This document shows, piece by piece, positions 11,614-49,318 of a stretch of DNA of 64,000 nucleotides (its first letter is position 1; each line of letters starts with the position of its first letter). Position numbers and translations under genes: made by a program. The DNA comes from a virus. The notes under the pieces are model-generated. The model did not search any database. It saw only the letters and a program-made list of their open reading frames with translations, and was not told the origin of the DNA. The stretch spans positions 1-64,000 of the IMG/VR virus record IMGVR_UViG_3300017963_000242; one strand, given 5' to 3'.

Positions 11614-11620
11614 TATTCAA

Positions 11621-11675
11621 TTGTTAAAGTGCGCCCCGCCACACCCACGGCGGGGCTCTCTCATTCCAACTCCAC
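11621..11675. repeat. 55-bp exact duplication (gene 3' end, hairpin, boxA-like), copy 1
   Basis: Identical to 13654-13708. Confidence 0.9.
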
Positions 11676-12509
11676 TGGTGCAAGCACCCACCGCAACCCC
11701 GCGAACCATTCCTCCAGTCGCTCGACTACCGTGGTCGCAATTTGTTCCTCGTTGCACGTTCCAGGCTCACACGGTGGGCATTCGGGGCAATTCTGTGGCG
11801 GTAACTCGCCACTTTCGGCAACATACCAGCATCGAGCATCGTCCAAGTACACATCGTTGTGCTTGACGGACCATTTGTTCGTCACCAGCACGAACAGCGT
11901 CACGCGCTCCGACTCCGCCGTCACGACGCGGCTATAGTACGTCTGATAGCTGCCCGGCGTCCACTCGTACCTGGTCCACTCGATTCCGTGCTCCCACGGC
12001 CACGACTGACCCTCAGCGCCAATTCCAAGCGAGACGTACACCTCACCGCTGTGCTGGCCGGGATCGTCGCTGTTGGTGGACCACCCGTGCGCCTGGATTG
12101 AAAACTGCACGTCACGATCCTGCTCAACGTCAACCTGTTGTGAAAATGCCGCGTCCATAATGCCATAGAATGCGAATGCGACTTGAGCCCGTTCGCCCTC
12201 GGCCACGCGGTTGGGGAACTGCGCTGCCTCAATCGGCTTGAACTCAGGCCGGCGCGTTGGATCGCTGCCTCCTCCGCTCTCAGCCAATGGCGGCAGAGTA
12301 TTCTCGCGGTAGTGCGACGTCCAGCCCTGCGCGACATAGCCACCCGGCACGGCGCCGTACGGCGACTCAAATCCGGGATTGACGAGCGTGATCTGCTCAG
12401 CCGTTGCCCTCGGCAACGCGGCGACACTCGGCGGCAAAAACGCGCAGCACAGCAGCAACGTTATCGAGGCTGCCAAAAAACGGACGGCGGGTCTGTAGGT
12501 CTGGTTCAT
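11661..12509 (-). CDS. Secreted carbohydrate-binding-module-like protein
   Basis: Signal peptide; LVNPGFE...VYLDDA jelly-roll pattern; CPECPPC linker; ends RWVLAPVELE. Confidence 0.6.
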   Translation of the reverse strand: MNQTYRPAVRFLAASITLLLCCAFLPPSVAALPRATAEQITLVNPGFESPYGAVPGGYVAQGWTSHYRENTLPPLAESGGGSDPTRRPEFKPIEAAQFPNRVAEGERAQVAFAFYGIMDAAFSQQVDVEQDRDVQFSIQAHGWSTNSDDPGQHSGEVYVSLGIGAEGQSWPWEHGIEWTRYEWTPGSYQTYYSRVVTAESERVTLFVLVTNKWSVKHNDVYLDDARCWYVAESGELPPQNCPECPPCEPGTCNEEQIATTVVERLEEWFAGLRWVLAPVELE

Positions 12510-12737: not shown

Positions 12738-12766
12738 TTGACAATCTAGACAGAACGTGGTATAAT
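12738..12766 (+). promoter_or_regulatory. Consensus sigma70 promoter of island 2
   Basis: TTGACA-17-TATAAT with TG extension; TCTAG motifs in the spacer and after -10. Confidence 0.85.
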
Positions 12767-12823
12767 CTAGTCAAGCAAGTGAGGGAAGCGGAACCCCTCA
12801 AGAGCAAGAAAAGGAGAATCAAA

Positions 12824-13078
12824 ATGGAACCGCAGGACATCAAGACGATTCAGCTCAGCAAGGACGAGCCAAGTATCAGCGGCGCGAATTCGGCAAGCGG
12901 AGCGGCCTACACGGAAGGAACCGAAGCAACCATTTTCCAGGACGATGATGGCGACTACGGCTACTGCCTCCATGGCATCGGGCAGGACGGCAACTATTTT
13001 GAGTCTGAGGACGTAGACGGATTCAATACCGCAGACGAGGCCGAGCAGGCCGCCCGCGACAACTGCCGCGCTCAATAG
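12824..13078 (+). CDS. Small highly acidic protein (candidate anti-defence/DNA mimic)
   Basis: AAGGAG RBS; 84 aa, very D/E-rich; first gene after promoter. Confidence 0.6.
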   Translation: MEPQDIKTIQLSKDEPSISGANSASGAAYTEGTEATIFQDDDGDYGYCLHGIGQDGNYFESEDVDGFNTADEAEQAARDNCRAQ

Positions 13079-13084
13079 CTAGGC

Positions 13085-13134
13085 TACATTCGATCCGCTG
13101 AGGATTACATACATTCGATCCGTTGAGGATACTG
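13085..13134 (+). repeat. Tandem CRISPR-repeat-like units (candidate solitary repeat unit)
   Basis: TACATTCGATCCG(C/T)TGAGGAT at 13085-13105 and 13110-13130; second copy continues ACTG. Confidence 0.55.
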
Positions 13135-13186
13135 GCTAAGCTAAGCATGCCCGCACCACGCGGGCCACACACAAGGAGACAGGCAA

Positions 13187-13417
13187 ATGGCACGCTTTCA
13201 GGTAGTAGGTCCAGGGGGTGATCCCGGAGAATCGGGCATCTATGATCGCCAGACCGGACGACAGGTGGTCGGCTCCTATGAGCTGGCCAAACGCGGATAC
13301 GACATCCACAACGTCGTTACCTGGAGCGACGAGGCGATCCGAAAATTGGCCGAACGCATTCAGCGCGAGGAACGCCTCGCTGGAGGATGCGTTAAGTTCG
13401 ATGTGTACGATCTGTAA
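13187..13417 (+). CDS. Small hypothetical protein
   Basis: AAGGAG RBS. Confidence 0.6.
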   Translation: MARFQVVGPGGDPGESGIYDRQTGRQVVGSYELAKRGYDIHNVVTWSDEAIRKLAERIQREERLAGGCVKFDVYDL

Positions 13418-13431
13418 AAAGGAATTCACCT

Positions 13432-13641
13432 ATGCGCCAACCGCAAATCAGCACCACCGTAGGCCCGCACATCCGAGAGCTGTTCGACCAGTTGGTCGAG
13501 CGCTACGGATCGGGCACTGTGGTGCTCTCCATCGCAATCAGCGACTTAGGCCAGAAACACGGCCTAGAACTTGACTGGGAAGCCAAACCTAAAACGGACT
13601 CAGTCGACGCTGCACGCGACTGGATGCGTGCAAGTTACTAG
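13432..13641 (+). CDS. Small RHH-like DNA-binding protein (possible island autoregulator)
   Basis: Beta strand QISTTV followed by two helices; last gene of island. Confidence 0.45.
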   Translation: MRQPQISTTVGPHIRELFDQLVERYGSGTVVLSIAISDLGQKHGLELDWEAKPKTDSVDAARDWMRASY

Positions 13642-13653
13642 AAAACTATTTAC

Positions 13654-13708
13654 TTGTTAAAGTGCGCCCCGCCACACCCACGGCGGGGCTCTCTCATTCC
13701 AACTCCAC
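13654..13708. repeat. 55-bp exact duplication, copy 2
   Basis: Identical to 11621-11675. Confidence 0.9.
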
Positions 13709-15280
13709 CGGAGCCAACACCCACCGGGCCAACTCCGCCCGCACACCCTCGCGCACCAGCCCCGGCCCCACCTCGGCCAGCACATCACGCACCACTTGCG
13801 CAATCGTGTCCATAGTCGGCGGCTCGACCTCATCCACCGGCAGCGGAGGCACGAACCGCAGATACCCCACCCAAACCCCCTCGCGTGGTTGAGCCACAAA
13901 CGACGTTCGACCGTTGACTACATTCAACACTTGCACCTCGACCAGCACCCCCGACAACCAGTCGAACAGATATAGCTCGTAATCCCCATCGCGCATCCCG
14001 CGCACCGCGACACTCTGAGCCTCGCATCGCGCCGTCATCAGCACGTGCTCGCCGTCGCCCCACGAGGCAAGCACGTCCGCGTCGACCTCCACGTGCCCGT
14101 CCCAGCACACACCGTCTCCGTCCCATTCTGCTAGATCGACCATATCTGCCAGCACGCTCGTCACACCGGCAATCTCCATCATAGCCGGATCGGCGTACCC
14201 ACCTGCGACCCAGTTGTTGCGCCTGCTCTCCCGTGTCCCCGGCCACCGCACCGGCCCCATCAGTCCAGGCCCGCCGCACACCGCCAACCACTCGAACAGC
14301 TTCGACGGTCCATACGGCGCGGGCTCGTGATACGGCTCAGTCCGTTGCAGCGAATACGGCGCATATTGGCCGACTACGACTTGCTTGTCGGGATAGTGCG
14401 TCTGGCATTCCCGCAACCACTCGCGCGCGACCGCGTGATCCCCGTCCGTGTACCAGTTTATGGTCAGCACGTCCACGCTTGGCACATCGTGAACGCGACA
14501 CACGTTCTGTGCCCACTTTGCGTCCAGGTCGTGCTTCGATCCCGCAAACAGATGCCCGCTCGCCACCGGCGCGCTGTGGTGCGCGTGAATGTACGCCGCG
14601 ATTCGCTCATTCCACGCTGCCAGCGTGTTGATCTGCGCGGTCAAGTCCGAGTTTTTCGGCAGCTCCCAAAATTCAGCATCTGTCGCTAGCCACGTAAATT
14701 CCTCGCACGTTTTCCACAGCCCGACAATGTCCCGCTCTCCAACTGCGTCGATGATGAACTGAATCCGTGCCTCAGCCGCAGCCAAGCACCGCTCATCCGT
14801 GAACACCTGCCAACCGTCGACCACATAGCCGCCATTGCGCTCGTTCCAGGCGTGCGCGTGCCAGCCGACGCCGCGAAACTCGGTGTTTTCAAACGGCGTG
14901 ATCATCAGCCGCACGTTGTACCGTTCTGCCGCGTCGAACAACTGCCGCAGGTTGGACACCTGCCACACGTCGCCCTCTGGCGCTGCGATCTGCGCGTCGT
15001 CGCCGTCCGTGGTCCACACGTTGAACGTCTCTGCTGGCGGCGGCTCGACAGACCACGCGACCCGCCCCTCGTCCCAGTAGATTTGTTTGCCTGTGAGCCG
15101 CACGCGGATCATGTTCACGCCTGCCTGATTGAGCCGCTTGCACCACTCGTCATAATCTAGTGGATCATCACCCGGTAGTGGACCCAACGTGTCGGGCTGA
15201 CCAAACAGCCCGCGCTTAAGCTGCGCCGTTTGCCACGCTGCGAATATTGTGGCGTAGCCTCTCAGGTTTGTAAGTTTCAT
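13694..15280 (-). CDS. Glycoside hydrolase clan GH-A (GH5-like) protein
   Basis: AGVNMIRV, LFDAAERYNVRLM, WKTCEE, DVLTINWY; ends RWVLAPVELE. Confidence 0.55.
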   Translation of the reverse strand: MKLTNLRGYATIFAAWQTAQLKRGLFGQPDTLGPLPGDDPLDYDEWCKRLNQAGVNMIRVRLTGKQIYWDEGRVAWSVEPPPAETFNVWTTDGDDAQIAAPEGDVWQVSNLRQLFDAAERYNVRLMITPFENTEFRGVGWHAHAWNERNGGYVVDGWQVFTDERCLAAAEARIQFIIDAVGERDIVGLWKTCEEFTWLATDAEFWELPKNSDLTAQINTLAAWNERIAAYIHAHHSAPVASGHLFAGSKHDLDAKWAQNVCRVHDVPSVDVLTINWYTDGDHAVAREWLRECQTHYPDKQVVVGQYAPYSLQRTEPYHEPAPYGPSKLFEWLAVCGGPGLMGPVRWPGTRESRRNNWVAGGYADPAMMEIAGVTSVLADMVDLAEWDGDGVCWDGHVEVDADVLASWGDGEHVLMTARCEAQSVAVRGMRDGDYELYLFDWLSGVLVEVQVLNVVNGRTSFVAQPREGVWVGYLRFVPPLPVDEVEPPTMDTIAQVVRDVLAEVGPGLVREGVRAELARWVLAPVELE

Positions 15281-49120: not shown

Positions 49121-49318
49121 CTACCTTTCTGTTTGGAATCTTTCAACGCGCCCCAATCCAACCTCGAACGATGTAAACTTTTCGTCGTGACGAAATGACT
49201 CAGCTATACCCAAATCTTCTTTGAGTATGTTTCCGTCTTTGACAAATCGAATATCCATATCTGAGACTGGAACGGTCAGATGCTTGTCTATCACGATGTA
49301 CGTATCTGGCGCAGTCAT
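49121..49318 (-). CDS. Hypothetical protein
   Basis: GAAAGG RBS. Confidence 0.45.
   Translation of the reverse strand: MTAPDTYIVIDKHLTVPVSDMDIRFVKDGNILKEDLGIAESFRHDEKFTSFEVGLGRVERFQTER

What the first reader, a model, noticed from the sequence alone, without database searches (positions are those of the whole stretch)
12738..13641. Candidate anti-CRISPR island with a CRISPR-repeat mimic (Racr-like)
Seen: consensus promoter, very acidic 84-aa protein, intergenic tandem TACATTCGATCCG(C/T)TGAGGAT (25-bp period), small ORF, RHH-like ORF. The stretch ATTACATACATTCGATCCGTTGAGGATACTG resembles a repeat family I recall from Chloroflexota (GTTACA..TTCGATCCG..GAGGATACTGAAAG); this recall is unverified. 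Known: solitary repeat units can act as RNA anti-CRISPRs, often in acr-aca operons. Inference: a combined protein and RNA anti-CRISPR cassette.
Basis: partly seen in the sequence, partly recalled or inferred. Interest (0 to 1): 0.75.

Follow-up and report, generated by a model that had tools for sequence, protein, structure and literature searches.

The report
Phage mimic of host CRISPR repeat
An uncultured 80-kb phage carries, inside a small strongly promoted operon of variable acidic proteins and a conserved regulator, two tandem truncated copies of a real type I-B CRISPR repeat of Chloroflexota, most likely an RNA decoy for the host's crRNA-processing enzyme Cas6.

Summary
The two 21-nt units (13085-13105, 13110-13130) match a genuine 37-nt CRISPR repeat family. 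That family forms arrays of up to about 100 repeats beside type I-B-like cas operons in Chloroflexota MAGs. Copy 2 shares 23 consecutive bases (13112-13134) with the repeat of one MAG. A covariance model of the family scores it 28.5 bits, E=3e-5 in the window.

Both copies keep the small hairpin and its 5' flank, up to the predicted Cas6 cut. Both lack the repeat's last bases (the 5' handle) and its first 10 bases. No spacer lies between them. They read in crRNA sense, about 310 nt behind a perfect sigma-70 promoter.

Relatives share the promoter, a 5'-UTR hairpin and the last gene (RHH-like ORF3). The small, mostly acidic genes in between differ in every relative, as in acr-aca operons. Only this phage has the mimic.

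No integrase was found. The phage also carries an array-less type IV-B-like cas operon.

Best reading (about 0.5): a handle-less, tandem Racr-type Cas6 decoy. Function, expression and host are inferred, not shown. The scan had not reported this element on other DNA.

The parts
12738..12766 (+). Consensus sigma-70 promoter with extended -10. The core TTGACA...CGTGGTA(T/C)AATCTAGTCA is conserved in five related loci.
12743..12773 (+). Two AATCTAG(A/T)CA boxes 21 nt apart, overlapping the -35 and -10/start region. Candidate operators for the RHH-like ORF3 product; TCTAG boxes recur in the relatives' promoters.
   Evidence: (D10); operator role is inference
12780..12800 (+). 5'-UTR stem-loop (TGAGGG / CCCTCA). 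It is kept in L061, and in L068 through a two-sided change (TGAGGA / TCCTCA).
   Evidence: read from the sequences
12824..13078 (+). ORF1, 84 aa, pI 4.05, with an AGGAG ribosome-binding site. Three environmental homologues at 56-66% identity. AF2 model is beta-rich with a C-terminal helix (pLDDT 84). Candidate Acr protein, function untested.
13085..13105 (+). Repeat mimic copy 1. It corresponds to repeat positions 9-29, with loop GCTGA (the C22 variant), and ends exactly at the predicted Cas6 cut (13105|13106). What follows is TACATACA instead of ACTGAAAG.
13110..13134 (+). Repeat mimic copy 2. 13112-13134 is identical to positions 11-33 of the G001 repeat. The predicted Cas6 cut is 13130|13131, and only the first 4 of the 8 handle bases are kept.
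13149..13165 (+). GC-rich hairpin GCCCGC-ACCAC-GCGGGC with no U-tract, in front of the ORF2 ribosome-binding site. It may be a 5' stabiliser of a processed ORF2-ORF3 RNA (inference).
13187..13417 (+). ORF2, 76 aa. An orphan: no homologue in the 5.8-billion-protein set, no family.
13432..13641 (+). ORF3, 69 aa. The N-terminal 45 residues (RQPQISTTV...) are conserved in relatives that carry different C-terminal extensions. Candidate RHH-like regulator (Aca-like).
13661..13694 (.). GC-rich hairpin between the convergent ORF3 and the 528-aa gene. It is part of the 80-nt repeat.
   Evidence: (I8)
11614..11693 (.). Left copy of an 80-nt direct repeat (93% identical to 13647-13726). The two copies bracket the 282-aa gene plus the operon.
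13647..13726 (.). Right copy of the 80-nt direct repeat.

Best explanation
The intergenic tandem is a truncated RNA mimic of the host's type I-B CRISPR repeat, that is, a Racr-type RNA anti-CRISPR. It is carried as cargo of an acr-aca-like operon. Proposed mechanism: the consensus promoter drives an mRNA for ORF1, the two mimic units, ORF2 and ORF3. Each unit presents the conserved 4-bp hairpin (AUCC/GGAU, 5-nt loop) and its 5' flank, the part of the repeat that lies upstream of the Cas6 cut. Host Cas6 binds these units, and probably cuts after GGAU at 13105|13106 and 13130|13131. Because the units have no 8-nt 5' handle and no spacer, the products cannot seed a working Cascade. Cas6 would thus be titrated away from pre-crRNA. 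The acidic ORF1 and the orphan ORF2 are candidate protein inhibitors, and RHH-like ORF3 is the candidate autorepressor acting on the TCTAG boxes. Shown here: the sequence match, its orientation, the type of the host cas operons, and the variable-cargo architecture. Inferred: transcription, Cas6 binding or cutting, inhibition, and the identity of the host.
For: (1) Real repeat family. Arrays of 5 to about 100 copies with a 72-76 bp period occur in Ktedonobacteria, Thermoflexales, Ardenticatenaceae, Anaerolineae and 'Chloroflexi' MAGs.
(2) Strength of the match. 23 consecutive identical bases, and covariance model R1 gives 28.5 bits, E=3e-5; the next hit in the window scores 10 bits.
(3) Cas context. 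The arrays lie downstream of, and co-directional with, type I-B-like operons: Cas8b1/Cst1, Cas7/Cst2, Cas5t, Cas3, Cas6 (PF10040), Cas1, Cas4. The GTTTCA...GAAAG strand is therefore the crRNA strand, and the phage copies lie in that sense behind the promoter.
(4) What is retained. It is the hairpin plus the region upstream of the predicted cut. The one difference between the copies is in the loop, where natural repeats also vary.
(5) Published precedent. For RacrIF1 the stem-loop and the product upstream of the Cas6f site carry the inhibition; changes to the 8-nt handle are tolerated; and Racr candidates often sit among acr genes (PMC10651486).
(6) Constraint on the core. Cas6 proteins of two hosts are only 33% identical, yet both arrays share repeat core 13-36 apart from the variable loop position. 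This points to the core as the constrained part.
(7) Operon architecture. Relatives L061/62, L063, L064/65, L066 and L068 keep the ORF3-like gene, and all but L063 (contig too short upstream) show the promoter, but carry different small, mostly acidic cargo genes.
(8) No recombinase. No tyrosine or serine recombinase was found in the 94%-complete record.
Against: No expression data exist: no RNA run holds the locus.
The mimic occurs only in this phage, so there is no conservation evidence for function. The two copies differ by one base and may be a recent duplication.
The first 10 repeat positions are not retained. If this Cas6 reads the 5' end of the repeat, as some Cas6 enzymes of weakly structured repeats do (my knowledge), the units would not bind it.
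The hairpin is weak, -4 to -5 kcal/mol.
The host is not established independently. None of 165 spacers from these arrays matches the phage, and the phage portal and Csf2 proteins found nothing in five repeat-bearing MAGs.
The conservation of positions 13-33 in my repeat set is partly by construction of the search pattern.
ORF1-3 match no known Acr or Aca family.
Confidence: 0.5

Rival explanations
1. Inert remnant. A piece of a host CRISPR array, or of a host solitary copy, was captured by recombination into a fast-changing cargo slot, duplicated by slippage at the TACA microhomology, and is decaying without function.
For: The element is unique to this phage; the closest relative L068 lacks it. 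It is truncated at both repeat ends. The copies are nearly identical, as after a recent duplication. The slot is recombinogenic, flanked by an 80-nt direct repeat.
Against: Both copies keep the stem intact, and similarity stops at the predicted Cas6 cut rather than at a random point. They lie in crRNA sense behind a perfect promoter, in an operon built like anti-defence loci. The portion retained is the one shown to carry inhibition in RacrIF1.
Confidence: 0.2
2. Cas6-dependent riboregulation of the phage operon. The units copy a host cis element and serve as processing sites. They separate ORF1 from the ORF2-ORF3 (regulator) message, so that operon output depends on whether the infected cell has active Cas6.
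For: Two host lineages carry a solitary, handle-less copy with the same core and the same C22 loop variant (TTCGATCCGCTGAGGAT) directly upstream of cas1. One is in L046, between cas6 and cas1; the other is in L042, 20 nt before the cas1 ATG. The phage units are likewise intercistronic. They are followed by a GC hairpin that could cap a processed 5' end.
Against: There are only two host examples, and their function is unknown. The gene upstream in L042 is not recognisably cas6. No data on processing exist. This reading is compatible with, and not exclusive of, the decoy reading.
Confidence: 0.12
3. RNA partner of the phage's own array-less type IV-B (Csf) complex. Host Cas6 would cut the units and hand the RNA to phage Csf proteins.
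For: The same record encodes Csf2/Cas7 (E=1.5e-18), Csf3/Cas5 (E=6.6e-16) and a CysH-like protein at L067:3353-5791, with no Cas6 and no array. A virus with a IV-B locus plus a mini-array has been described (bioRxiv 10.1101/2023.08.24.554615).
Against: The operon lies about 53 kb from the units. The Csf hits are below NCBIfam's curated cut-offs. The solved IV-B complex assembles on non-CRISPR RNA without sequence preference (PMC7937560). The units have no handle for a Cas5-type subunit and no spacer.
Confidence: 0.06
4. A DNA-level site. Either an attP-like core for integration into host CRISPR repeats, a decoy for Cas1-Cas2, or an operator/iteron whose likeness to the repeat is coincidence.
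For: Direct repeats spaced 25 bp apart are typical of protein-binding DNA sites. A relative (L064) has a tyrosine integrase next to the conserved promoter.
Against: No integrase or recombinase was found in this record. Both repeat borders, where Cas1-Cas2 acts (established knowledge), are missing. The units contain no TCTAG box like those in the promoter. Coincidence is very unlikely: E=3e-5, 23 identical bases, and outside CRISPR arrays the pattern is as rare as chance predicts.
Confidence: 0.05

Closest known systems
Racr / viral solitary repeat units (RacrIF1 and candidates for other types; Camara-Wilpert et al. 2023, PMC10651486)
   Same: A virus-encoded copy of the host CRISPR repeat, without spacers or adjacent cas genes. 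It sits behind a strong promoter among candidate anti-CRISPR genes. It retains the Cas6 stem-loop and the part upstream of the cut.
   Different: There are two tandem units 25 nt apart, each truncated: no 8-nt handle, and a divergent first third. They are placed between two protein-coding genes of one operon rather than forming a stand-alone small RNA gene. The target is a type I-B-like system of Chloroflexota. The effect is untested.
acr-aca operons
   Same: A strong promoter, small acidic proteins that differ between related elements, and a conserved small DNA-binding-type gene at the 3' end. Repeated boxes overlap the promoter.
   Different: There is no homology to any described Acr or Aca. 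The regulator looks RHH-like rather than the usual HTH. Repression and inhibition are untested.
Viral crRNA-like regulatory RNAs (Cracr/crlRNA mini-arrays; bioRxiv 10.1101/2024.10.29.618823) and host CreA-type RNAs
   Same: Degenerate repeats on a phage that engage host Cas proteins and cooperate with co-encoded Acr proteins.
   Different: Those need a pseudo-spacer between two repeats to guide Cas proteins to a promoter. Here the two 37-nt repeat frames overlap by 12 nt, so there is no spacer.
Host solitary handle-less copies upstream of cas1 (found here in L046 and L042)
   Same: The same 17-nt core with the C22 loop variant, no ACTGAAAG handle, and an intercistronic position.
   Different: They are single copies, chromosomal and inside cas operons. 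Their function is unknown, and to my knowledge they have not been described.

Membership tests
Racr (RNA anti-CRISPR, solitary repeat unit) | Sequence likeness to a bona fide CRISPR repeat | tested here: met
   23 identical bases to the G001 repeat; R1 gives 28.5 bits, E=3e-5; arrays verified
Racr (RNA anti-CRISPR, solitary repeat unit) | On a virus or plasmid, without spacers and not beside cas genes | tested here: met
   IMG/VR virus record. The repeat frames overlap, so there is no spacer. The nearest cas-like genes (type IV-B) are about 53 kb away.
Racr (RNA anti-CRISPR, solitary repeat unit) | Keeps the structure that Cas6 reads (stem-loop at the cut site) | tested here: met
   The AUCC/GGAU stem and 5-nt loop are intact in both copies, and the only difference lies in the loop. 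What this Cas6 actually reads is unknown.
Racr (RNA anti-CRISPR, solitary repeat unit) | Whole repeat unit including the 5' handle | tested here: not met
   Positions 1-10 diverge. Positions 34-37 (copy 2) or 30-37 (copy 1) are absent. In RacrIF1 the handle is dispensable for inhibition.
Racr (RNA anti-CRISPR, solitary repeat unit) | Transcribed, bound or cut by Cas6, and inhibits interference | not testable with these tools
   There is a promoter-like site upstream and no terminator-like site in the scanned region; no RNA data.
acr-aca operon | Conserved regulator gene with varying small upstream genes in related elements | tested here: met
   Six cargo versions sit in front of a conserved ORF3-like gene; the shared promoter is seen in all but L063, whose contig is too short upstream
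acr-aca operon | Homology to a described Acr or Aca family | tested here: not met
   No Pfam, PHROG or PDB sequence match
Ribbon-helix-helix regulators (ORF3) | N-terminal strand followed by two helices, forming a dimer | tested here: inconclusive
   AF2 gives helices 12-25 and 28-42 after an extended N-terminus (pLDDT 70). Many RHH proteins are among the top structural rows, but only at Z 2.7-3.4 and Foldseek E>4.
CRISPR mini-array / crRNA-like RNA | Repeats that flank a spacer | tested here: not met
   Only 4 nt lie between the 21-nt cores, and the 37-nt frames overlap by 12 nt
attP mimic of a CRISPR repeat | A cognate integrase on the element | tested here: not met
   PF00589, PF07508 and PF00239 were not found in the 94%-complete record

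The most novel reading that the evidence does not exclude
The phage has copied a host cis-regulatory Cas6 site, not just an array repeat. The model would be the handle-less C22 element that sits upstream of cas1 in two Chloroflexota lineages. The phage would use it in tandem as a Cas6 sensor and sponge. In CRISPR-active cells Cas6 would cut between ORF1 and the regulator genes, change the output of the operon and be trapped on the products, possibly in concert with the phage's array-less type IV-B complex.
Probability: 0.12. Interest if true: 0.85.

Novelty: new variant of a known kind. Interest (0 to 1): 0.62.

Why it matters
RNA anti-CRISPRs were shown experimentally only in 2023, mostly as full solitary repeats. 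This locus offers a natural minimal version: only the Cas6-binding part, doubled, and embedded between protein genes. It comes from a phage of a phylum (Chloroflexota, inferred) with almost no phage-host biology. It gives a directly testable RNA-Cas6 pair. It also supplies a new promoter-plus-regulator anchor (the ORF3 family) for finding anti-defence genes in sediment phages. Finally, it points to unexplored solitary repeat copies inside host cas operons.

Tried and rejected
Rfam: no family reached its gathering score in the window.

Pfam and PHROGs: nothing for ORF1-3 or for most neighbouring genes.

First viral scan with the 17-mer: 20 single hits, all but L014 without flank similarity, so chance.

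Metagenome scan for the 21-nt phage unit: 0 hits.

Single-sequence and profile searches for ORF1 relatives in viral contigs: none. The single-sequence ORF3 search also found none.

Spacers: 165 spacers from the arrays were run against the phage and against 27 viral or metagenomic loci. No match of 24 nt or more.

Phage portal and Csf2 proteins against five repeat-bearing MAGs: nothing.

Terminase: the nearest cultured phages infect Actinomycetota at 40% identity or less, which is uninformative for the host. No tRNA genes.

Sequencing runs: two DNA holders (sediment and seawater metagenomes, probably the source data) with identical sequence, and no RNA holder listed.

The weak R1 hit at 49219-49267 lies inside a coding region and is taken as chance.

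L024's 'solitary' C22 repeat is most likely the degenerate terminal repeat of its array.

Fold of the whole intergenic RNA: z = -1.5, not distinctive.

ORF1 fold search: only non-significant Pur-alpha/PC4-like rows.

Complex prediction was not used, because it takes no RNA.

Full report
**Setting.** The window is the first 64 kb of a 79.8-kb IMG/VR virus record that is rated 94% complete. The region of the finding lies among minus-strand genes: a CBM-like 282-aa gene, two glycoside-hydrolase-like genes and a 1421-aa fibre-like gene. The small operon is on the plus strand. It is bracketed, together with the 282-aa gene, by an 80-nt direct repeat at 11614-11693 and 13647-13726.

**Observation.**
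- The promoter at 12738-12766 is a 12-of-12 match with an extended -10.
- ORF1 (12824-13078) is 84 aa with pI 4.05.
- The two 21-nt units are at 13085-13105 and 13110-13130. They differ by one base and have no third copy within 3 mismatches in the window. None of 100 shuffles gave two matches.
- ORF2 (13187-13417) and ORF3 (13432-13641) follow, with ribosome-binding sites.

**Is it a CRISPR repeat?**
- A 17-mer scan of viral contigs gave mostly chance hits. One of them, L014, continued as ...GGATACTGAAAG.
- A 21-nt pattern taken from copy 2 was then run over one genome per species (596 Gb). It hit 14 loci. Nine are arrays with a 72-76 bp period, up to 92 matches in one locus. Two are array edges, one is a solitary copy and two are unrelated singletons. 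About four chance hits are expected for 19 fixed bases (my arithmetic). The sequence is therefore not otherwise enriched in genomes.
- All array-bearing genomes are Chloroflexota MAGs. The repeats are 37 nt long. The 5' third varies. The core (positions 13-33, fixed by my pattern apart from two free loop positions) is followed by an invariant AAA that the pattern did not impose.
- Copy 2 is identical to positions 11-33 of the repeat of MAG G001.
- A covariance model of eight repeat variants scores 13102-13135 at 28.5 bits, E=3e-5. The next hit in 64 kb scores 10 bits.
- In a sample of 401 Chloroflexota genomes, only G001 and G002 (plus a single match at a contig edge in G210) carry the closest variant.

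**Which system, which strand?**
- In two genomes the array starts 190-340 nt downstream of a cas operon and runs in the same direction. The operon encodes Cas8b1/Cst1, Cas7/Cst2-DevR, Cas5t, Cas3, a 315-333-aa Cas6 (PF10040), Cas1 and Cas4.
- This is a type I-B-like system, and GTTTCA...ACTGAAAG is the crRNA strand.
- By the general rule for Cas6 systems (established knowledge), the cut lies 8 nt from the repeat's 3' end. Here that is directly 3' of a 4-bp hairpin, AUCC-GUUGA-GGAU.
- The phage units are in this sense, about 310 nt behind the promoter, and the scan found no terminator-like site in the scanned region.

**Anatomy of the mimic.**
- Both units keep the hairpin and 8-9 bases 5' of it.
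- Copy 1 loses similarity exactly at the predicted cut. Copy 2 keeps 4 of the 8 handle bases.
- The first 10 repeat positions are not kept beyond chance.
- The two full 37-nt frames would overlap by 12 nt, so there is no spacer. This excludes a mini-array or crRNA-like guide.
- The single difference between the copies (C or T at repeat position 22) lies in the loop, where natural repeats also vary.
- In the experimental work on RacrIF1, the stem-loop and the product upstream of the Cas6f cut carry the inhibition, and the 8-nt handle can be altered (PMC10651486). The phage element is thus a natural 'minimal' version, doubled.

**The operon.**
- ORF3 relatives were found in seven further loci: L061-L066 and L068, with L069 duplicating L065.
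- Four distinct relatives share the promoter core TTGACA-N17-CGTGGTA(T/C)AAT-CTAGTCA with TCTAG boxes. L063's contig is too short upstream to tell.
- Three loci, counting the window itself, share a 5'-UTR hairpin, and L068 keeps it through a two-sided change.
- The genes between the promoter and ORF3 differ each time. The window has ORF1, the mimic and ORF2. L068 has one unrelated acidic 88-aa gene. L061 has a zinc-ribbon gene and an acidic gene. L064 has an acidic 54-aa gene. L063 has an 87-aa gene. L066 has none.
- The operon also sits in different neighbourhoods, next to an integrase in L064 and next to a tape-measure-like gene in L068.
- This is the signature of acr-aca loci.
- ORF3's conserved N-terminal 45 residues model as an extended segment plus two helices. 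Ribbon-helix-helix proteins fill much of the weak structural hit list, which is suggestive but not significant.
- ORF1 has three environmental homologues and a confident beta-rich model without a known fold match. ORF2 is an orphan.
- None of the relatives carries the mimic.

**Other context.**
I confirmed Csf2, Csf3 and CysH-like hits at L067:3353-5791, below the curated cut-offs.
- Full-length solitary repeats of the same family occur on other viral contigs: L014 at 52 bits and L047/L048 at 34 bits. There they lie antisense to the local genes.
- Two host lineages hold a solitary, handle-less copy with the same C22 loop as phage copy 1, directly upstream of cas1.

**Mechanism and rivals.**
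- I rate a Racr-type Cas6 decoy as most likely (0.5).
- The rivals are an inert captured remnant (0.2), a Cas6-dependent processing switch modelled on the host's cas1-upstream element (0.12), an RNA partner for the phage's type IV-B proteins (0.06) and a DNA-level site (0.05).
- The DNA-level reading is weakened by three things: no recombinase was found, both repeat borders are missing, and the statistics of the match argue against coincidence.
- The main weaknesses of the best reading are these: there are no expression data, no independent host link, no conservation of the mimic, and the missing 5' third of the repeat.

**Novelty.** The class (Racr) is known. This is a new variant in architecture (tandem, handle-less, intercistronic) and in host range. 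Only the sequence evidence has been verified.

Noticed in passing
L046:2693-2709 (-) and L042:2209-2225 (-): Two host MAGs (Anaerolineae G005, Ktedonobacteria G003) carry a solitary TTCGATCCGCTGAGGAT element without the ACTGAAAG handle, directly upstream of cas1. In G005 it lies in the 67-nt gap after cas6. It has the same C22 loop variant as phage copy 1 and the L014 copy; no array repeat seen here has C22, apart from the C22/G32 copy in L024, which I take to be a degenerate terminal repeat. It may be a cis-regulatory Cas6 site.
   Followed up: partly
L067:2402-5791 (record 66402-69791, beyond the window): Array-less type IV-B-like operon on the phage: Csf2/Cas7 (E=1.5e-18), Csf3/Cas5 (E=6.6e-16) and a CysH-like gene, preceded by 268-aa and 150-aa ORFs that have no family hit. 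No Cas6, and no repeat-model hit in L067.
   Followed up: partly
L014:3379-3415 (-); L047:4674-4711 (+); L048:5453-5490 (+); L023:962-998 (+): Full-length solitary repeats of the same family on other viral contigs and on one Anaerolineae contig. In L014 the copy is antisense to the flanking genes. In L047 it lies antisense inside an 803-aa helicase-methyltransferase gene, so the mRNA there would carry an anti-repeat.
   Followed up: partly
window 11614-11693 and 13647-13726: An 80-nt direct repeat (93%) covers the last codons (…WVLAPVELE) and the terminator hairpin of two unrelated minus-strand genes. It brackets the 282-aa gene plus the operon, a likely recombination joint.
   Followed up: partly
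window 12780-12800; L061 and L068 equivalents: A conserved 5'-UTR stem-loop of the operon, with a two-sided compensatory change in L068 (GAGGG/CCCTC to GAGGA/TCCTC).
   Followed up: no
L064:2930-3916: In a relative, a tyrosine integrase sits immediately upstream of the conserved promoter. The ORF3-like gene there is fused to a C-terminal domain that, by eye, resembles the free 88-aa cargo protein of L068.
   Followed up: no
L045:8838-10907: The G001 type I-B operon is preceded by genes with a weak Csx14-like domain hit (far below the curated cut-off) plus an HTH-regulator-like region, and a Csx3/Crn3-like domain (ring-nuclease family). This hints at cyclic-oligoadenylate signalling components beside a type I system.
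   Followed up: no
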